Shown: positions 1 through 7,610 of the stretch, in pieces
Layout: each line of letters starts with the position of its first letter
Numbering within the stretch: the first letter of the stretch is position 1
Origin: a virus
Taxonomy: Duplodnaviria; Heunggongvirae; Uroviricota; Caudoviricetes
Reading direction: 5' to 3' (one strand)
Virus record (IMG/VR): IMGVR_UViG_2698536571_000012
Length of the DNA: 7,751 nt
The notes under the pieces: generated by a model
The model's database searches: none
What the model was told of the DNA's origin: nothing
Seen by the model: only the letters and a program-made list of their open reading frames with translations
Translations under genes and position numbers: made by a program

Positions 1-22
1 GGGACGGAAGTCGCTGTCGTTC

Positions 23-268
23 TCAAAATCGGTGGAGCTGCATGACAAAGTCATCGGGCATTATCTGAACATAAAACACTATCAATAAGTTGGAGTCATT
101 ACCCAGCTTCCAAGCCTTATTACATTTAATCTGAGCATCGAGAATATCATTTCTGATAGCTGGAGCGTAACCGGATACATCGCTAATATTCATTAACTCT
201 TTGCACGATAGCATAGGCGCGTTATTGCGTTCAGTGGTCACGTTACCTGCATTCTTCTTACTGGTCAC
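23..268 (-). CDS. Hypothetical protein, 3' segment of a frame-disrupted gene downstream of the tape measure gene
   Basis: Track ORF with GTG start at 268 and TGA stop at 23-25. Hand translation shows the same frame stays open with no stop up to 571 (182 codons) but has no ATG/GTG/TTG before 268. An open frame this long in AT-rich DNA is unlikely by chance, so the coding region probably extends upstream (see finding on 23-701). Confidence 0.5.
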
Positions 269-857: not shown

Positions 858-3038
858 TCATTCTTCCTCTGGATAGCTTGAACTTAAGAGCATATCCTGC
901 GTGAACTGGTCATTAGCTGATTGATTGAAAGTAAAGAAAGATGGTTCATCTGGTCGAACGACAACTTGACCACCAAGTGAAACTTTCACTGGCTCCTGAA
1001 TACGCTTACTCAAAGCACTAATTTCATCCCTCAGACCCTGAATATCTGCACTCGTTAATGCTGAATCTTGCTTAATGTTGTTTAACTCTGGATGATTGAA
1101 TCTTGCAATATTCATTGTGGCATTGTTAAACAATTCACCCATTGAACTAAAAATTCTACTCCATCCTTCGTTAATCATATTCGGTTTATTAGGGTCACCA
1201 GAATACACGGGATTAAAGTCACTACCCACACCTACCCCAGACGGATGCATATTAGCGTTTTTGACTACTTCCTGATTCATAAAATCCAGTGCTTTCTTCA
1301 ATGCATATAAACCAAGAGTGACGCCTCTGATTTGTGGAATCATTGAAGCTAATGCTAACGCTGTTTCATAACCGTCATCAGCATAACCAATTGCAAGAGC
1401 ACTACCTACACCACCAGCTACACCTTTCAGTTTTCCACCACCTTTACCAGTAGCTACCTGACCAGCCACCTGATTAGCTCTTGTACCTAACGTTGTGATT
1501 GCTCTTGTCAGGTTCATAACCCCTGTAGTAGCACTGAATAGCGTCTTTGCAGATAACGCTATAGCAAGACCTTTGACGAAGTTGATAAAACCATCACCGA
1601 CTTCATCAAGTAGTTTTCGTTTAGTGTCATCAAGGCTGTAATAGAACTTCTTAGTCTGTAAAATCCAGCCTTCAATGGTGTTATTGAATACGCGAATATC
1701 ATCTACACCAGCTTTAAGCATGTCGATAAGTCCACCGATAGCATCACCAGCGATAGAAGAACTCATCCCCATTTCACTAAGCAGGTTACTCAGGCTGGAT
1801 AAGAAGCCGTTTAGCTCATCCTGTGAACCTGAGAAGATTTTCACCATCGTATCATCCCAATTGTTTGCTAACTTACCTAAAGCTGTCTGAGTGCTCTTAG
1901 TGACTTCAGCCCAGCCACCCGCTTTATCAATCATCAAGCCCATCTGTTTAGCGACTTTAGGGAGAGTATCAGCGGAAAGTACCTTCCCGTTTTTCATGGC
2001 TGCATCAAGCTCTGTAGCAGTCATACCCAATGCTTCAGCGAATAGCTTAAATGCACCAGCCATACGGTCACCTAACTGCCCACGTAATTCCTCAGCCTGA
2101 ATCTTGCCCTTGCTCGCCATCTGCTCAAATGCTCTCAAAATGCCGTTTAGCTCATCGTTAGAAAGCCCCATTAAGCGACTCATAGCCGTTGCATTACCAA
2201 ATAGCTCCTGTGTCTGTTCCTGTGACATAGAACCCTGAGCACCTGCTGCAAACTTAGCGTAGCTTGATAGCCCTTCAGAGATATTAAGACCTGTCTTGTC
2301 TGCTAAATTTCGAATAAATACCTCAGCTTCAGATGCTTTATCACCAAGTACAAACTTAGCGGCTCTCTGTGCGGAATCTCGTTTAAGACCTGCATTCATA
2401 ATGGCCTTGTAAGCGTTAAGAGCACCCATCACAGAGTAAAATGCACCAGATAATTTAATCGCATTGCTTGCAAGATTATTAAATGCGTCGCTTGTATTGT
2501 TAATGCTGGCGGTCTTTGTCTGTGACCTGAGTTTATTCAACGTTTCACGAAGAGATTGATTTAATTTTGCAAGTTCAGCGTTAAACTTTTCACTTCCAAT
2601 ATTACCAGCCTTACCGCTTAAGCTGTAATACTGTGCTTTAAACATTTTAGCCATCAGCGGATTAATATCACCAAGCTTAGACATATTCACGCTATGCGCT
2701 GCTGTGATTGCTCTGTTTCCGCTAATTCGTGGTTGCCTTGATTGTTTTGGAGGATTAACAGTGTCATTAAATCTGGTGGCAAACTGAAATGCTTTTGTGC
2801 TTCTTGCTCTCTGCTCAATCTTGTCAAAGGTCTTATTAAACTTCCTTTCAAGCTGCCCTAAAGAACTTGTCAGATTGCTGTCAAGTTGCTTGGTATCGAC
2901 CTTAAACGCTCTATTCAAATTGCGTTCAATTCTTTGTGCTGACTGCAAAGCTGCCTTTTCAACTCTTTGCAAGCCCTTAATAACGTTTTCACTGAAACTA
3001 AGTTCAACGATAAAACTATCAACTGTGAATTTGCTCAT
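858..3038 (-). CDS. Phage tail tape measure protein (726 aa)
   Basis: Long, largely helical protein with the conserved tape-measure motif region (...GKIQAEELRGQLGDRMAGAFKLFAEALGMTATELDAAMKNGKVLSADTLPKVAKQMG...) and a Gly-rich hydrophobic segment (GKGGGKLKGVAGGVGSALAIGYADDGY). Start ATG 3038-3036 with GAGGTG Shine-Dalgarno 8 nt upstream. By the lambda gpH rule of thumb (~0.15 nm per residue) this would set a tail of roughly 100-110 nm. Confidence 0.85.
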   Translation of the reverse strand: MSKFTVDSFIVELSFSENVIKGLQRVEKAALQSAQRIERNLNRAFKVDTKQLDSNLTSSLGQLERKFNKTFDKIEQRARSTKAFQFATRFNDTVNPPKQSRQPRISGNRAITAAHSVNMSKLGDINPLMAKMFKAQYYSLSGKAGNIGSEKFNAELAKLNQSLRETLNKLRSQTKTASINNTSDAFNNLASNAIKLSGAFYSVMGALNAYKAIMNAGLKRDSAQRAAKFVLGDKASEAEVFIRNLADKTGLNISEGLSSYAKFAAGAQGSMSQEQTQELFGNATAMSRLMGLSNDELNGILRAFEQMASKGKIQAEELRGQLGDRMAGAFKLFAEALGMTATELDAAMKNGKVLSADTLPKVAKQMGLMIDKAGGWAEVTKSTQTALGKLANNWDDTMVKIFSGSQDELNGFLSSLSNLLSEMGMSSSIAGDAIGGLIDMLKAGVDDIRVFNNTIEGWILQTKKFYYSLDDTKRKLLDEVGDGFINFVKGLAIALSAKTLFSATTGVMNLTRAITTLGTRANQVAGQVATGKGGGKLKGVAGGVGSALAIGYADDGYETALALASMIPQIRGVTLGLYALKKALDFMNQEVVKNANMHPSGVGVGSDFNPVYSGDPNKPNMINEGWSRIFSSMGELFNNATMNIARFNHPELNNIKQDSALTSADIQGLRDEISALSKRIQEPVKVSLGGQVVVRPDEPSFFTFNQSANDQFTQDMLLSSSYPEEE

Positions 3039-3367: not shown

Positions 3368-4078
3368 TTAAATAGCCTTTGCATATTTGCTAGAAATCTT
3401 CGTAAGCTGCTCAATATCAGCCTGCATAGCAATCTTCTTAGCATCTTCATATTCTTTCACAAGCTCTTTCATAGCCTGAAGCTCTCTTGAGAGATACAAC
3501 TTAACATTATCAAGTTGCTTGTTACGTGATGCCAAGATGTTCTGTCTAGCAATTTCAGCGAGTTCTTCATCGCTCTTATTAGTCATGTAAATAAACTGAC
3601 CAGCACCTCTTGATGCCTTAACCATCTTCACAATTCGATGTCCAGCAGGAAGACTACTAATCACGGCTGCGACGTTTTCTTGAAAAGTACCAAAACCATC
3701 ATTATCTTCGTATTGGTAATAGACAAATGGTTTCTGTGACAATTCATCCTGAATCTCAAATTCTGACGGCTCAATAGCTGATTGCATCAAGGTAACTTTG
3801 CTGTAAGCGTCATCTAATCTAAGGCGCTGTTCTTTCAGCAGTTGGTAATATTTCTTTTCAAGCTCAAGTAATGCTTCACTCTTGCAAATATCAGGCATCT
3901 CTTGAGGCTCAGGAGACACAAAGATGGTTGTTTTTGGTGACATCTTTAGCGATTGCTCAAGCTCAATACGCTTGTCATGCTCTTTACGCTGAATAGTGAT
4001 AGCTGGATGTTCAGTCTGTGGCGACCAGTCACTGAAGCTATCAATCACTTTGCCATTAATGTAAATATCATTTGTCAT
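3368..4078 (-). CDS. Hypothetical protein (236 aa) with predicted coiled-coil C-terminus
   Basis: Start reassigned to ATG 4078-4076 (MTNDIYINGK...) because GAGGA sits 6 nt upstream; the track's GTG start at 4126 has no RBS. TAA stop 3370-3368. Heptad-like C-terminal region (DEELAEIARQNILASRNKQLDNVKLYLSRELQAMKELVKEYEDAKKIAMQ). Function not recognisable by eye. Confidence 0.7.
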   Translation of the reverse strand: MTNDIYINGKVIDSFSDWSPQTEHPAITIQRKEHDKRIELEQSLKMSPKTTIFVSPEPQEMPDICKSEALLELEKKYYQLLKEQRLRLDDAYSKVTLMQSAIEPSEFEIQDELSQKPFVYYQYEDNDGFGTFQENVAAVISSLPAGHRIVKMVKASRGAGQFIYMTNKSDEELAEIARQNILASRNKQLDNVKLYLSRELQAMKELVKEYEDAKKIAMQADIEQLTKISSKYAKAI

Positions 4079-4253
4079 TGCTTTTCCTCTTCTAAGCGGA
4101 AGTGTTTCAGTTTTTAAAAAGCACACCTGACAGCCTATCTAAACTTAGAAGAGACTTAAAAGGCGGTTTGCCAAGTATGCTTTTTAAAAGCTGAATAGCC
4201 CTAGATAATTTCTTATAAAGGGCCATTCATAAGGTGAAGAAATTAAAACATCT

Positions 4254-4275
4254 AAAGGATTCAAAAAGGATTCAA
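4254..4275. repeat. Perfect tandem duplication, 2 x 11 bp (AAAGGATTCAA)
   Basis: Exact copies at 4254-4264 and 4265-4275 inside the ORF-free island. Confidence 0.9.
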
Positions 4276-4398
4276 ACGAATGAACAAGAGTACTTTTCGA
4301 GATGACCTCTCAGACTAACCTGAAAGGTCATGTAGCGAAAAGCATTGCACCTTTCAGAATAACTATCATTGATGTAGAATGATTAATAGTTTAATTCA

Positions 4399-4415
4399 GG
4401 AAGAGTTGCTCTTCC
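4399..4415. repeat. Perfect 17-bp palindrome GGAAGAG-TTG-CTCTTCC
   Basis: Arms 4399-4405 and 4409-4415 are exact reverse complements. No U-tract follows on either strand, so more likely a protein-binding dyad than a terminator. Confidence 0.85.
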
Positions 4416-4553
4416 CTATTACCATCATCTCATGCTTAAGGTTATTTGTCAACAGCTTTTTAACAGATTGGTAACATCAATTCTTATTTACCGTATTACC
4501 TACCCAGCAACCAACAAATAACCCTAAAGTCATCCAGAGAATAACGAGTGTCA

Positions 4554-4859
4554 TTACATCACCTCGCTGTAAGGGTTTAATTCATTCTGATAGGTCAAGA
4601 ATACATTCAGCTTCAATAATTGCTCAGGGCTTAAATCAAGTCGATTGCACTCTTCAATGATAAAGCGCTTATTGTATGGGTCTGTTACTTCCAGCTTGTG
4701 AACATAGTCACCAAGTTTAATTTCGTTGATTATATGCTTGTCAATATACGTTGACGCTTCAAAACAATGCATGAAATAGATATTAAAGCCCGACCTGTTC
4801 AGGTCAATCAACCAATTCATGGTTTCTTGGTCAACCATAATTTGCATTGGGTAATTCAT
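4554..4859 (-). CDS. Hypothetical protein (101 aa)
   Basis: Track ORF; ATG at 4859 with AGGAAGGA about 8 nt upstream; TAA stop 4556-4554. No recognisable motif. Confidence 0.7.
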   Translation of the reverse strand: MNYPMQIMVDQETMNWLIDLNRSGFNIYFMHCFEASTYIDKHIINEIKLGDYVHKLEVTDPYNKRFIIEECNRLDLSPEQLLKLNVFLTYQNELNPYSEVM

Positions 4860-5005
4860 TTTTAAAATCCTTCCTGTATCGCATTCTAAGACGTTTTAAC
4901 CCCTTTTTTAGACCACTTAAGGCGATTCCCTAAGTTACCCTGATTAGGGGCTTAAAAACGTTTCTGGTGCGTCTGGTAAAGCCTGAGAGATATGTTTTGC
5001 TGTTT

Positions 5006-6055: not shown

Positions 6056-6352
6056 TTACCGGCACTTTCCCTTGATAATATTGGTGGCCCTCAGATTACC
6101 GGGGTCACCGTCTTTTAATCGTAGCTGGTGGACTGAATCCCATAAATCGTAATGATACAGCACCGCAAACTTCAAAGCGTCAATCTTTAAATCTGTCACA
6201 TCATCGACGAAATAATAATCCCTCCCTTCTTTCTTCGGTCGAATCCGGTAAACTTCCCCGTGAGTATCTTTCATCAAGTAACCTTCACGAGAAATGCTGT
6301 AACGTCTGAGTAAATAGTCACGGTATTTTCTCTCGCCATTATAAGTTTTCAT
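6056..6352 (-). CDS. Hypothetical basic protein (98 aa), translationally coupled to the replication initiator
   Basis: ATG 6352-6350 overlaps the initiator's TAA stop (TAATG); GGAGGA 8 nt upstream; TAA stop 6058-6056. Tyr/Arg/Lys-rich. Confidence 0.7.
   Translation of the reverse strand: MKTYNGERKYRDYLLRRYSISREGYLMKDTHGEVYRIRPKKEGRDYYFVDDVTDLKIDALKFAVLYHYDLWDSVHQLRLKDGDPGNLRATNIIKGKCR
6083..6116 (+). terminator. Rho-independent terminator-like hairpin for the small plus-strand gene
   Basis: Plus RNA stem GGUGGCCC (6083-6090) pairs with GGGUCACC (6102-6109), 8 bp with one G-U, 11-nt loop, then G-UCUUUU (6110-6116). It lies inside the 3' end of the convergent 98-aa gene. Confidence 0.45.
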
Positions 6353-7305
6353 TAAAACATTCCTCCACCATAAACACGTCTGACTTTAACTTTTTCTTTC
6401 TTTGGCTCGGTGTGAGTTTTCTTTTTTGGTGTAAAAGTAAAATCATCGTCACTATCATCAAAGTCATCGAGGTCACTAACCTTGTTCTTTAGCTTCGCAT
6501 TTCTGAATCTTTCTTTAATTTCTGCTTTACGCTGTTCACGTTTCAATTCCTCTTCAGGGTCTTCTTCATCATCAAGGTCAACATCCGGTAATTCATCATC
6601 AGTGGCGGGGCACTGTGTGTTTTTATGGTCACTACTAGCAATCACATCAGAGATTTTATCTTCCTTTTTAACGACCTCTTTAGCAGCTTCACTATCAAGG
6701 TCATCTAAGTCAGATGTTTTAACAGTCTCTTTAATAGCCTCTTCAATACCAAGAGAATCACATTCATGTGAATCACAGAGCGAAGCTCCCTTCTTAAAAT
6801 ATTCTTCTTCAAAGTCATCTTCTTTATTGTTATTAATAAGTTCTTTCTTGTTATTACTGTTATTATACGTGTCAAAGATTTTGACTGACTGAGTAAAAAA
6901 TTTTGACTCAGTGGGTAAAGAATTTTGACTCAGTGGGTCATCTTTCTTGACTGACTGAGTAACTTTAGACTCCAGCTTTGCCTTTCTGGCTTCCTTAGCT
7001 GTAAGCTCTGTTAAAACCTCCGGTACTTCATCAAGTGAATAAACTTTAATAACACACTGATTGCTTGCAACGTTAGTTTTCTTGATTAAACCATGTGCCT
7101 CAAGTTGTTTCATACATGCAATCACGGATGTTCTTGTGATTCCAGCATACTGACCAAGATGAGCATATGAAGGGGTATAATATTGCCCCTTATCGTGATA
7201 AAACTTTTGTTCATTCAACATGACAGTGTAAATAATACGGTCGGCAGCTTTAACGCCATTAGTCATCTGATAAATACGGTCATCAAACATGTGGAATTTT
7301 TCCAT
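6352..7305 (-). CDS. Phage replication initiator (lambda-O-like organiser) with internal origin, 317 aa
   Basis: Start reassigned to ATG 7305-7303 (MEKFHMFDD...) with AAGGAAAA RBS; the track's GTG start at 7362 adds an implausible 19-aa leader. N-terminal winged-helix-like segment (YAHLGQYAGITRTSVIACMKQLEAHGLIKK), a central linker encoded by the iterons, and a strongly acidic C-terminal tail (SDLDDLD, DVDLDDEEDPEEE, SDLDDFDDSDDDF). Confidence 0.75.
   Translation of the reverse strand: MEKFHMFDDRIYQMTNGVKAADRIIYTVMLNEQKFYHDKGQYYTPSYAHLGQYAGITRTSVIACMKQLEAHGLIKKTNVASNQCVIKVYSLDEVPEVLTELTAKEARKAKLESKVTQSVKKDDPLSQNSLPTESKFFTQSVKIFDTYNNSNNKKELINNNKEDDFEEEYFKKGASLCDSHECDSLGIEEAIKETVKTSDLDDLDSEAAKEVVKKEDKISDVIASSDHKNTQCPATDDELPDVDLDDEEDPEEELKREQRKAEIKERFRNAKLKNKVSDLDDFDDSDDDFTFTPKKKTHTEPKKEKVKVRRVYGGGMF
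6790..6870. other. AT-rich tract adjacent to the iterons (candidate DNA-unwinding element of the origin)
   Basis: About 80 bp of mostly A/T (ttcttaaaatattcttcttcaaagtcatcttctttattgttattaataagttctttcttgttattactgttattatacg) directly next to the iteron array, inside the initiator ORF. Confidence 0.55.
6879..6962. repeat. Iteron array: four 18-bp direct repeats at exact 22-bp phasing
   Basis: TTTTGACTGACTGAGTAA (6879-6896), TTTTGACTCAGTGGGTAA (6901-6918), TTTTGACTCAGTGGGTCA (6923-6940), TCTTGACTGACTGAGTAA (6945-6962), plus a degenerate copy TTTAGACTCCAG (6965-6976). Confidence 0.8.
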
Positions 7306-7458
7306 TATATTTTCCTTTTTAAAAATAAAACAAAGAAAGGGCTGACCACGTATAGTGACCAACCCCAGAGGGAGTGAATTAATTAGAAGATGGACTGATA
7401 AAGGAACTCAGAAGCCTGAGCGATTACGCGAGTATTAACAGCAAAAGGAAAAGCCTTG

Positions 7459-7488: not shown

Positions 7489-7610
7489 TACCCTGACGCC
7501 TCCCAACGTTGTAACCTCTTAATGTTCTGAGTTCTTTTATCACCCCATATAAAAACCATAACAGATGTGATTATAAATTGCAACAATTATTTCACAGAAT
7601 AATTACTGAT

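What the first reader, a model, noticed from the sequence alone, without database searches (positions are those of the whole stretch)
4079..4553. 475-bp ORF-free island packed with repeats and mutually exclusive hairpins
This is the longest non-coding stretch in an otherwise tightly packed, translationally coupled region. It contains a perfect 2 x 11-bp tandem duplication (4254-4275) and a perfect 17-bp palindrome (4399-4415). It also holds two inverted repeats that share one arm: ATGACCT 4302-4308 with AGGTCAT 4325-4331, and CTGAAAGGT 4320-4328 with ACCTTTCAG 4349-4357. Because they overlap, they cannot both form in an RNA, which is the layout of an attenuator or riboregulator. No ORF in the region has a credible ribosome-binding site. 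It sits exactly at the boundary between the accessory genes and the genes leading to the tail module. Candidates are a late-promoter and activator-binding region, a packaging (cos/pac) or attachment site, or a small non-coding RNA.
Basis: seen in the sequence. Interest (0 to 1): 0.55.

Follow-up and report, generated by a model that had tools for sequence, protein, structure and literature searches.

The report
Promoter and structured leader of tail genes
The "empty" stretch is a conserved promoter followed by a folded, roughly 340-base untranslated leader RNA that probably keeps the tail genes of a small phage-related E. coli island switched off; its right-hand end is in fact a tiny unannotated membrane-peptide gene.

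Summary
Short inverted repeats are far more frequent than chance (8 observed vs 0.19 expected). Several details do not hold:
- 4477-4554 is a conserved 25-codon gene, so the region is not ORF-free.
- The "17-bp palindrome" is a 7-bp hairpin with a 3-nt loop.
- The 2x11 tandem repeat occurs only in this copy.
- The "competing" hairpin is absent from half of the relatives.

All genes lie on the minus strand. The region is conserved (72-87% identity) and unannotated in 478 of 5,426 complete E. coli genomes. Comparing 33 distinct relatives shows:
- A nearly invariant sigma-70 promoter: TTGACA at 4452-4447, 17 nt, then TGnCATAAT (GATGAT here, 4429-4424).
- A hairpin at the start of the transcript.
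- An invariant 20-nt box (4336-4355), followed by a long hairpin (4292-4343).
- Terminator hairpins, which are degenerate in this window.
- A 26-bp hairpin (4106-4195) with compensatory changes at 13 of 26 pairs. Its loop pairs with the ribosome-binding site of the next gene (4144-4153 with 4087-4096), and this pairing is kept in families with different sequences.

The structures are more stable as minus-strand RNA, so they act in RNA rather than as DNA sites. Best reading: a promoter plus a regulatory leader of the tail-gene operon. It is a new RNA family of a known kind. How repression is lifted is unknown.

The parts
4477..4554 (-). Small gene for a 25-aa hydrophobic peptide (MTLVILWMTLGLFVGCWVGNTVNKN). 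Its start overlaps the stop of the upstream 101-aa gene (TAATG). It is not part of the leader, but it occupies the right end of the reported 'ORF-free' region.
   Evidence: The ORF is 25 codons in nearly all relatives, with 25 distinct peptide sequences, conserved W7/G11/G15-C16/N20, and a GAGG ribosome-binding site about 8 nt upstream. It is unannotated in the RefSeq homologues.
4424..4464 (-). Sigma-70 promoter facing the tail genes: A/T-rich upstream stretch, -35 TTGACA (4452-4447), 17-nt spacer, TG, -10 GATGAT (4429-4424). Most relatives have CATAAT at -10.
   Evidence: (10 of 12 consensus matches, TG present) and the same site in L001 and L022. Block identity is 0.93, with 24 of 48 columns invariant across 33 distinct relatives, against 0.5-0.6 in neighbouring variable blocks.
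4399..4417 (-). Inferred transcription start (about 4417/4416), immediately followed by a 5'-terminal hairpin P1 (GGAAGAG-CAA-CUCUUCC on the RNA).
   Evidence: The start position is inferred from its distance to the -10 element. The hairpin is predicted by RNAalifold; two of its pairs show compensatory changes in 6 and 8 sequences. In L022 the hairpin is followed by a U-run and is called terminator-like.
4361..4391 (-). Variable cassette. In this window it is an imperfect 13-nt-arm hairpin. Relatives have other modules here: (GGAT)2-4 repeats and a 22-28-nt hairpin insert.
   Evidence: (I18) and columns 99-180 (mean identity 0.58).
4336..4355 (-). Invariant 20-nt box GAAAGGUGCAAUGCUUUUCG. It can fold on itself (GAAAGGU:GCUUUUC), or its 3' half can form the outer stem of the next hairpin.
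   Evidence: Identity is 0.99 across relatives. It occurs once in the window, with 0 matches expected. In IMG/VR the 18-mer appears in copies of this island plus 3 unrelated chance hits. The self-fold was predicted.
4292..4343 (-). Long 'core' hairpin. The outer stem is GCUUUUCG (4343-4336) with CGAAAAGU (4299-4292). The inner 12-bp stem is 4331-4320 with 4313-4302, closing a 6-nt loop.
   Evidence: The inner stem has 10-13 contiguous pairs in all 27 distinct variants, in six different sequence versions. 90% of cells are paired, against 41-55% when the partner columns are slid. It is more stable as minus-strand RNA in 21 of 22 variants.
4254..4275 (-). 2 x 11 tandem duplication. It is a local slippage product with no conserved counterpart.
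   Evidence: D4; relatives carry a single copy.
4194..4227 (-). Terminator-like hairpin T2 (GCCCU at 4223-4219 with AGGGC at 4202-4198 on the RNA). Its U-tract is degenerate in this window (AGGGCUAUUCAGCUUUU). Most relatives have AGGGCUUUUU, and 18 of 33 also carry a canonical terminator T1 upstream that this window lacks.
   Evidence: columns 290-485. T1 is called as a terminator in L001. No terminator is called in the window's leader. The T2 stem never varies, so it offers no covariation test.
4106..4195 (-). Hairpin P5: a 26-bp stem (arms 4195-4169 and 4132-4106) with a 36-nt apical region.
   Evidence: I1. On alignment A4, 97.7% of cells are paired, 13 of 26 pairs show compensatory changes, 0 of 500 shuffles reach the observed values, and slid controls give 37-57%. 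It is more stable as minus-strand RNA in 29 of 30 variants, with means of -33.3 vs -23.9 kcal/mol.
4144..4153 (-). Anti-Shine-Dalgarno sequence CUCUUCUAAG in the apical region of P5.
   Evidence: (I13).
4079..4097 (-). Ribosome-binding region of the 236-aa gene (CUUAGAAGAGGAAAAGCA before AUG 4078-4076). Positions 4096-4087 pair with the anti-SD.
   Evidence: The loop-to-SD duplex is -14 to -22 kcal/mol in every family (z of -2.7 to -6.2 against shuffled loops). This includes relatives with a different SD (AGAGGUGAA) and a matching loop sequence (UUCACCUCU). 91.9% of cells are paired. RNAalifold also finds the pairing.
3368..4078 (-). First gene controlled by the leader: 236 aa, function unknown. 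It is followed by a 68-aa ORF, the tape measure gene (858-3038) and a baseplate gene cut by IS1.
   Evidence: The 236-aa protein has no hit in Pfam, PHROGs, NCBIfam, PADLOC, the PDB or any phage genome.

Best explanation
The stretch 4079-4476 holds the promoter and the roughly 340-nt 5' untranslated leader of the minus-strand operon. That operon begins with the 236-aa gene and continues into the tape measure and baseplate genes.

**Proposed mechanism**
1. A consensus-like sigma-70 promoter (4452-4424) starts transcription at about 4417.
2. The RNA folds into a 5'-terminal hairpin, an invariant 20-nt box with a long hairpin, and one or two terminator hairpins. The terminators are strong in most relatives and weakened here.
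3. Just upstream of the gene, the RNA forms a 26-bp hairpin. Its loop base-pairs with the Shine-Dalgarno region, so ribosomes cannot load.
4. Expression of the tail genes is therefore held down at two levels: premature termination and masking of the ribosome-binding site.
5. Something must relieve this. The most likely candidates are read-through (antitermination) and/or cleavage of the 26-bp stem by RNase III, which would detach the anti-SD from the message. This may be triggered when a helper phage infects.

**Shown by comparison of relatives**
- The promoter motif and its conservation.
- The RNA-level structures and the strand on which they act.
- The conserved pairing between anti-SD and SD.

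**Inferred**
- The transcription start site.
- Actual termination at the terminator hairpins.
- The repressive effect on translation.
- The trigger that lifts repression.
For: - **Gene layout.** All genes are on the minus strand, and the region lies between the 25-codon gene and the 236-aa gene.
- **Conservation.** The region is conserved and unannotated in 478 of 5,426 complete E. coli genomes.
- **Promoter.** TTGACA-17-TG-n-(C/G)AT(A/G)AT is the best-conserved block together with the box (identity 0.93 and 0.99).
- **Overall folding.** The leader as minus-strand RNA folds at -111.1 kcal/mol (z -7.85). The plus strand gives -92.5 (z -4.40).
- **Strand asymmetry.** G-U pairs exist only in the minus sense: 21 of 22 core-hairpin variants and 29 of 30 P5 variants are more stable as minus-strand RNA.
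- **P5 covariation.** 13 of 26 pairs have compensatory changes, 97.7% of cells are paired, and 0 of 500 shuffles match.
- **Core hairpin.** It is kept in six sequence versions.
- **Anti-SD:SD pairing.** It is kept in all families, including three with different SD and loop sequences, and RNAalifold recovers it.
- **Terminators.** A canonical terminator T1 lies inside the leader in 18 of 33 relatives.
- **No hidden gene.** No ORF of consistent length is conserved inside the leader.
Against: - No transcript data are available, so the start site, termination and repression are all untested.
- In this window the leader has no canonical terminator and the -10 element is weaker (GATGAT). This copy is also decaying: IS1 cuts its baseplate gene.
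- The compensatory changes come from a few recombining sequence families, perhaps 3-4 independent events. The counts therefore overstate independence.
- Covariation statistics for the core hairpin are weak on the model-fitted alignment.
- A 26-bp stem plus loop-to-downstream pairing may be sterically awkward as a simultaneous pseudoknot. The two pairings could instead alternate.
- No antiterminator or other regulator was recognised among the window's proteins.
Confidence: 0.6

Rival explanations
1. The promoter drives a free-standing small RNA of about 170-300 nt, ending at T1 or T2. It would act in trans, like lambda 6S/oop RNA or the CI RNA of satellite P4, with the invariant box as its recognition sequence. 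On this view the downstream hairpin and SD masking are a separate element.
For: - The promoter is strong and conserved.
- Terminator hairpins lie 170-300 nt downstream in most relatives.
- The invariant 20-nt box is partly single-stranded.
- The block most widely conserved across genomes is 4265-4485, that is, promoter to core hairpin.
Against: - This window lacks T1 and has a degenerate T2.
- A scan of the island's upstream 3 kb found no consistent complementary target.
- The box occurs nowhere else in the window.
- This reading is compatible with the leader model rather than exclusive of it.
Confidence: 0.2
2. One reading: the hairpins 4302-4331 and 4320-4357 share an arm and compete, switching transcription or translation on and off.
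For: In the window both pairings exist (I9 and I22). The alternative duplex is -12.7 kcal/mol against -17.1 for the main stem. A second possible competition exists: GCUUUUC of the box can pair either upstream (GAAAGGU) or downstream (GAAAAG).
Against: - The alternative pairing is weak (-3.9 to -6.6) in 14 of 27 distinct variants, while the main stem is kept in all of them.
- No U-tract or SD follows this hairpin, so there is nothing for it to gate.
- The box-internal alternative never varies, so it cannot be tested by covariation.
Confidence: 0.08
3. A DNA-level site: a replication origin, a packaging (cos/pac) site, a recombination site, or clustered operators for a DNA-binding protein. For example, the GCTTTTTAAAAGC-like motif occurs at 4108-4122, 4177-4193 and 4453-4466.
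For: The region is AT-rich and full of dyads. Three similar near-palindromic motifs are present, one of them next to the -35 element (D3, D6, I6, I19). The island encodes a replication-initiator-like protein.
Against: - Pairing is preserved while sequence is not. One family replaces both arms of P5 with unrelated complementary sequence while the motif at the promoter stays unchanged.
- Mismatches are G-U only in the minus sense. This has no meaning for duplex DNA.
- The tandem repeat is unique to this copy.
- Four 22-bp iterons inside the initiator gene (6871-6958) are a better origin candidate.
Confidence: 0.07
4. A non-functional spacer whose repeats are chance or decay products.
For: This island copy is damaged by IS1. 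The tandem duplication is a recent slip. Cassettes come and go in the middle of the leader.
Against: - The region is conserved in 478 genomes, with invariant blocks.
- Inverted repeats are about 40-fold above chance.
- There is covariation.
- The folding z-score is -7.85.
Confidence: 0.03

Closest known systems
Leader of the lambda pL-N transcript (nutL boxA/boxB, followed by a large RNase III-sensitive hairpin that influences N translation). Recalled from established lambda literature; not tested here.
   Same: Same order of parts: a strong sigma-70 promoter; a short conserved single-stranded box followed by a hairpin; and then, immediately upstream of the first gene, a long double-stranded stem (22 bp or more, the size RNase III needs) linked to masking of the ribosome-binding site.
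   Different: - There is no sequence similarity and no Rfam match.
- The box (UGCUUUUCG) only loosely resembles boxA.
- The hairpin after the box has 12 bp and variable loops, not a 5-bp boxB.
- No N-like protein was recognised.
- The genes controlled are tail genes, not an early regulator.
- RNase III cleavage is untested.
Lambda late-gene control region (pR' - 6S RNA - tR', read through by Q antiterminator).
   Same: A consensus-like, probably constitutive promoter; a leader of a few hundred nucleotides ending in intrinsic terminator(s); then the virion structural genes.
   Different: - No Q-family protein was found among the window's ORFs.
- The Q-binding element and the promoter-proximal pause were not tested.
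- This window's copy lacks a canonical terminator.
- The lambda region has no anti-SD hairpin.
Anti-Shine-Dalgarno 5' UTRs and fold-back mRNAs, such as the hok family and many phage and IS mRNAs in which an upstream segment pairs with the SD.
   Same: A conserved upstream sequence is complementary to the SD region, it co-varies with the SD, and it is presented by a stable local structure.
   Different: The anti-SD sits in the loop of a 26-bp hairpin, a pseudoknot-like topology. There is no known activating processing step or antisense partner. The nearby 25-aa hydrophobic peptide gene lies upstream of the promoter, not under this leader.
Immunity region of satellite phage P4 (constitutive PLE promoter; leader with seqA / cI(seqB) / seqC complementarities causing premature termination).
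   Same: An element that depends on another phage; a constitutive-looking promoter; and a leader with internal complementary boxes and terminators ahead of the operon.
   Different: The box-to-arm complementarity that would mimic seqA/seqB is not conserved. There is no similarity to P4 sequences. Processing into a small RNA is untested.
Phage satellites that carry their own tape measure gene: PLE11 of Vibrio cholerae, PLE-like elements and some cf-PICIs (PMC12987554, Extended Data Fig. 10).
   Same: This concerns the island, not the leader. It is a small element with a large serine recombinase, a replication gene, no capsid or terminase genes, and its own tape measure gene closely related to that of a lytic myovirus.
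   Different: This is E. coli with Felixounavirus-like tail genes. Helper dependence, excision and transfer were not tested here. I found no paper describing this island.

Membership tests
Sigma-70 promoter | -35 and -10 hexamers close to consensus at 16-18 nt spacing | tested here: met
   TTGACA-17-GATGAT with TG present, 10 of 12 matches. Most relatives have CATAAT at -10. The same site is called in L001 and L022.
Sigma-70 promoter | A transcript 5' end about 7 nt downstream of the -10 element | not testable with these tools
   No transcript data are available. A start at about 4417 is inferred.
SD-sequestering 5' UTR (anti-SD element) | An upstream segment complementary to the Shine-Dalgarno region of the next gene | tested here: met
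   10 perfect pairs, 4144-4153 with 4087-4096 (I13). The extended duplex is -18.0 kcal/mol, against -8.6 +/- 2.6 for shuffled loops.
SD-sequestering 5' UTR (anti-SD element) | The pairing is maintained when either partner changes | tested here: met
   Relatives with the SD AGAGGUGAA carry UUCACCUCU in the loop. The ACUUAGAGGA family pairs through one G-U. All families give -14 to -22 kcal/mol. 91.9% of cells are paired, and 4 of 10 pairs have changes on both sides.
SD-sequestering 5' UTR (anti-SD element) | Reduced translation that is relieved by disrupting the pairing | not testable with these tools
   This needs reporter fusions.
Intrinsic terminator / transcription attenuator | A G+C-rich stem-loop followed directly by a U-tract | tested here: inconclusive
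   No such site is called in the window's leader; T2 here ends AGGGCUAUUCAG. In relatives, T1 is a canonical terminator (9-bp stem followed by TTTCTTT), and T2 is followed by UUUUU.
Intrinsic terminator / transcription attenuator | A conserved alternative (antiterminator) pairing that competes with the terminator stem | tested here: not met
   The only competing pair proposed (4320-4328 with 4349-4357) concerns a non-terminator hairpin and is weak in 14 of 27 variants. No conserved competitor of T1 or T2 was seen.
Lambda Q-type late control region | A Q-family antiterminator gene in the element | tested here: not met
   None of the nine window proteins hits any Pfam antiterminator family. The island's genes outside the window are annotated as recombinases, a Dam methylase and a baseplate protein.
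Lambda Q-type late control region | A Q-binding element in the promoter and a sigma-dependent promoter-proximal pause | not tested
   The promoter spacer is nearly invariant, which would allow a protein site. No motif model was available to test this.
RNase III processing hairpin | An uninterrupted double-stranded RNA stem of about two helical turns (20 bp or more) | tested here: met
   P5 has 26 pairs with one C-A mismatch in the window, and 22-27 pairs in all families.
RNase III processing hairpin | Cleavage by RNase III in vivo or in vitro | not testable with these tools
   This needs mapping in an rnc mutant or an in-vitro cleavage assay.
Any described RNA family (Rfam 15) | A covariance-model match at or near the gathering score | tested here: not met
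   The only hits are chance-level matches to eukaryotic snoRNA and miRNA models, at about half the gathering score or less.
Iteron-type replication origin | Conserved tandem direct repeats | tested here: not met
   The 2 x 11 repeat is present only in the window. Four 22-bp iterons lie elsewhere, at 6871-6958.

The most novel reading that the evidence does not exclude
The leader is the helper-sensing switch of an undescribed E. coli phage satellite that parasitises Felix O1-like lytic phages.
- A constitutive promoter would continuously make a short, terminated and translationally masked RNA.
- Infection by the helper would supply an antiterminator, an RNA, or a processing activity acting on the invariant box and the 26-bp hairpin. 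This would trigger read-through and unmask the ribosome-binding site.
- The island would then produce its own tape measure and baseplate proteins at the right moment and take over tail assembly.
Probability: 0.2. Interest if true: 0.7.

Novelty: new member of a known kind. Interest (0 to 1): 0.45.

Why it matters
The element lies in an island carried by about 9% of complete E. coli genomes, and it is annotated in none of them. It marks where and how the island's tail genes are controlled. Those genes are close copies of genes from lytic Felix O1-like phages.

If the island is a satellite or a defence element, this leader is the natural place to look for the signal that couples it to phage infection.

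The finding also adds an unannotated 25-codon membrane-peptide gene. It provides a clean example of a ribosome-binding site masked by the loop of a long hairpin, with co-variation across natural variants, that is ready for reporter tests.

Tried and rejected
- **Rfam.** A search of the whole window at E <= 1 gave only chance hits. No tRNA or tmRNA was found.
- **Phage DNA.** A DNA search of 50,697 phage genomes with 3900-4900 found nothing. A protein search with the 236-aa gene also found nothing.
- **Related loci.** `search for related loci` in GTDB species genomes returned only 2 loci (Escherichia), and IMG/VR returned 6. Most relatives were therefore fetched one by one from the E. coli collection.
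- **Motif scans.** An exact 14-mer scan of IMG/VR returned mostly chance hits. An 18-mer scan returned island copies plus 3 unrelated hits.
- **Whole-leader RNAalifold.** It was too gap-ridden to recover most helices, so modules were analysed separately.
- **Covariance model of the core hairpin.** It still misaligned the base of the inner stem in variants with a shorter linker, so its covariation statistics are weak. I relied on per-sequence stems instead.
- **Trans target.** A 14-nt complementarity between 4278-4291 and the initiator gene (I6) was rejected. The best duplexes fall at unrelated positions in relatives.
- **Leader peptide.** The invariant box contains AUG after a GGUG, but the ORF from it runs from 5 codons in the window (read from the sequence) to about 68 in relatives. 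This was rejected as a conserved peptide.
- **Protein family scans.** Pfam, PHROGs, NCBIfam, PADLOC and PDB sequence searches recognised only the tape measure protein and a replication-initiator-like protein.
- **Literature.** Searches for this island as a satellite found nothing specific.
Full report
**1. Setting**

Every substantial ORF in the window lies on the minus strand. In order of transcription they are:
- a replication-initiator-like protein (6352-7362; PHROG replication-initiation families);
- several small ORFs;
- a 101-aa ORF (4554-4859);
- the finding region;
- a 236-aa ORF (3368-4078);
- a 68-aa ORF;
- a tape measure protein (858-3038; Pfam TMP_3).

Window 1-102 is the end of IS1. 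The window is about 91% identical to a roughly 11-kb chromosomal island of E. coli:
- The island is bounded by a large and a small serine recombinase gene.
- It carries a Dam methylase, the replication gene, the tape measure gene and a baseplate gene.
- It has no capsid or terminase genes.
- It sits at different chromosomal sites: tonB-yciI in one strain and wrbA-ymdF in another.
- Parts of its tape measure and baseplate genes are 88-93% identical in DNA to Felix O1-like lytic phages.

**2. The observation**

The listed repeats are at the stated coordinates. The region holds 8 perfect 9-mer inverted repeats within 60 nt, against 0.19 expected; 0 of 500 dinucleotide shuffles reach 8.

Three statements need correction:
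- The right end is a gene. 4477-4554 (minus) encodes a 25-aa hydrophobic peptide with a GAGGTG ribosome-binding site, and its start overlaps the upstream stop (TAATG). The ORF is kept at 25 codons, with conservative changes, in nearly all relatives.
- The '17-bp palindrome' is a 7-bp hairpin with a 3-nt loop.
- The 2 x 11 duplication exists only in this window; the other 32 distinct relatives have one copy.

**3. Conservation**

The region matches 478 of 5,426 complete E. coli genomes at 72-87% identity. The core most often retained is about 4265-4485. RefSeq annotates nothing there in any of the 20 genome homologues I fetched. It has no counterpart in 50,697 phage genomes and matches no Rfam family.

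I collected 33 distinct versions of the stretch from the promoter to the start codon of the downstream gene. Conservation is uneven:

| Block | Mean identity |
|---|---|
| About 48 nt holding the promoter | 0.93 |
| 20-nt box GAAAGGTGCAATGCTTTTCG (4336-4355, minus) | 0.99 |
| Blocks between them | 0.5-0.8 |

In the less conserved blocks, whole cassettes are exchanged, inserted or lost.

**4. Promoter**

On the minus strand the invariant block reads TTGACA (4452-4447), a 17-nt spacer, TG, one base, then CATAAT in most relatives and GATGAT in the window (4429-4424). The scan calls this site in the window and in two distant relatives.

A start about 7 nt downstream (around 4417) would put the GGAAGAG/CUCUUCC hairpin at the very 5' end of the RNA. 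This start position is an inference. RNAalifold recovers that hairpin, and two of its pairs show compensatory changes in 6 and 8 sequences.

**5. The structures act in RNA, on the gene strand**
- Folded as minus-strand RNA, 4420-4076 gives -111.1 kcal/mol (z = -7.85). The plus strand gives -92.5 (z = -4.40).
- Across distinct variants, the core hairpin is more stable in the minus sense in 21 of 22 cases, and the big hairpin in 29 of 30 (means -33.3 vs -23.9 kcal/mol).
- The reason is that many pairs are G-U in the minus sense, which would be C-A mismatches on the other strand. Duplex DNA sites show no such asymmetry.

**6. The big hairpin (P5) and the masked ribosome-binding site**
- The hairpin 4195-4106 has 26 pairs. 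On the module alignment, 97.7% of cells are paired. 13 of 26 pairs have changes on both sides, 0 of 500 shuffles reach the observed values, and sliding the partner columns drops pairing to 37-57%.
- One family replaces UUUUAAAAAGCAUAC / GUGUGCUUUUUAAAA with CUUAAUAGAGCAUCU / GGUGCUCUAUUAAG. Two further families differ again.
- The apical region contains CUCUUCUAAG, which is complementary to CUUAGAAGAG in the ribosome-binding region (AGAGGA, 6 nt before the AUG).
- The duplex is -14 to -22 kcal/mol in every family, with z of -2.7 to -6.2 against shuffled loops.
- Relatives whose ribosome-binding site is AGAGGUGAA or GAGGUGAA have UUCACCUCU or UUCACCUC in the loop instead.
- Caveat: these variants are a handful of recombining families, so the number of independent events is small.

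**7. The box and the core hairpin**

After the invariant box comes a hairpin with an outer stem (GCUUUUCG / CGAAAAGU) and an inner stem of 10-13 pairs. The inner stem is present in all 27 distinct variants, in six sequence versions with varying loops.

On a model-fitted alignment, pairing is 90% against 41-55% for slid controls, but double changes are few.

- It reaches -9.4 to -12.7 kcal/mol in 13 variants but only -3.9 to -6.6 in the other 14.
- It is always weaker than the main stem.
- No terminator or ribosome-binding site follows this hairpin.

I therefore do not regard it as a conserved switch. A different competition is possible: GCUUUUC could pair with GAAAGGU inside the box rather than with the downstream GAAAAG. 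It cannot be tested because these bases never vary.

**8. Terminators**
- Eighteen of the 33 relatives carry a canonical intrinsic terminator (GCCCUAA-loop-UUAGGGCG followed by UUUCUUU) after the core hairpin. The scan calls it in L001.
- A second hairpin (GCCCU...AGGGC), followed by UUUUU, precedes P5 in nearly all relatives.
- In the window the first terminator is absent and the second has a poor U-tract. No terminator is called.

**9. Interpretation**

The parts, in order, are: a strong conserved promoter, a structured leader with terminators, a ribosome-binding site masked by a conserved pairing, and then the tail genes. I read this as the control region of the island's tail-gene operon. 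It would hold expression down by premature termination and by blocking ribosome loading.

What lifts the block is unknown. A stem of 22-27 bp immediately upstream of a masked ribosome-binding site is the arrangement known from the lambda N leader. There, RNase III cleavage relieves an inhibitory structure; this is established literature recalled from memory, not tested here. Cleavage of P5 would physically detach the anti-SD.

The invariant box suggests recognition by a protein or RNA factor, possibly supplied by an infecting phage. None of the window's proteins resembles a known antiterminator.

**10. Alternatives**
- **Free-standing small RNA ending at the terminators.** This is compatible with the data and may coexist with the leader function. 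A search for a target in the island gave nothing consistent.
- **DNA-level site (origin, cos/pac, att, operators).** The strand asymmetry and arm-swapping covariation argue against it. Four 22-bp iterons inside the initiator gene (6871-6958) are a much better origin candidate.
- **Chance or decay.** Conservation and covariation exclude this.

**11. Novelty**

This is an undescribed RNA element, but of a familiar kind: a promoter plus a regulatory 5' UTR with an anti-SD. I found no paper on the island. Satellites that carry their own tape measure genes have recently been reported, namely PLE11, PLE-like elements and some cf-PICIs (PMC12987554). That makes a satellite-like role for this island plausible but untested.

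Noticed in passing
window 1-102: This is the right end of insertion sequence IS1: 100% identical, with a median of 10 copies per genome in 4,963 of 5,426 genomes. It cuts the island's baseplate gene, so this copy of the island is damaged.
   Followed up: yes
window 6871-6958: Four tandem 22-bp repeats (GTCAAAGATTTTGACTGACTGA and variants) lie inside the replication-initiator-like gene 6352-7362. The layout matches the lambda origin inside gene O, so this is the likely origin of the island.
   Followed up: partly
window 4477-4554 (minus): A conserved 25-codon gene for a hydrophobic single-helix peptide is translationally coupled (TAATG) to the 101-aa gene. It is unannotated in every RefSeq homologue examined. 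Its function is unknown.
   Followed up: partly
whole window; L001 5885-15535; L002 1245-12409: The host element is an island of about 11 kb:
- It carries large and small serine recombinases, a Dam methylase, a replication gene, and tape measure and baseplate genes.
- Parts of the two tail genes are 88-93% identical in DNA to Felix O1-like lytic phages.
- It has no capsid or terminase genes.
- It is present in 478 of 5,426 complete E. coli genomes (up to 3 copies per genome) at different insertion sites.

It looks like an undescribed satellite-like or tail-interfering element.
   Followed up: partly
window 7390-7427 / 7511-7548: A 38-nt inverted repeat (76% complementary, 83 nt apart) lies in the intergenic region upstream of the replication gene. 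It may be another structured leader or a regulatory site.
   Followed up: no
homologous leaders, alignment A1 columns 50-180 (e.g. L009 1280-1758, L015 1210-1617): Cassettes come and go between relatives:
- a (GGAT)n run of 2-4 copies;
- a 27-nt hairpin insert between the -10 element and the first hairpin;
- an insert of about 28 nt containing complementary arms (ATGTTC/GAACAT) before the invariant box.
   Followed up: no
L014 2174-2461, L015 2416-2688, L016 2187-2474, L017 2555-2827: Some relatives carry small HNH endonuclease genes among the accessory genes upstream of the leader. The accessory region is mosaic, with two unrelated families of the gene that precedes the 25-codon ORF.
   Followed up: no
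window 3368-4078 (minus): NCBI's pipeline labels some homologues of the 236-aa protein 'transposase'. The protein has no hit in Pfam, PHROGs, NCBIfam, PADLOC, PDB sequences or any phage genome, so the label looks unfounded.
   Followed up: partly
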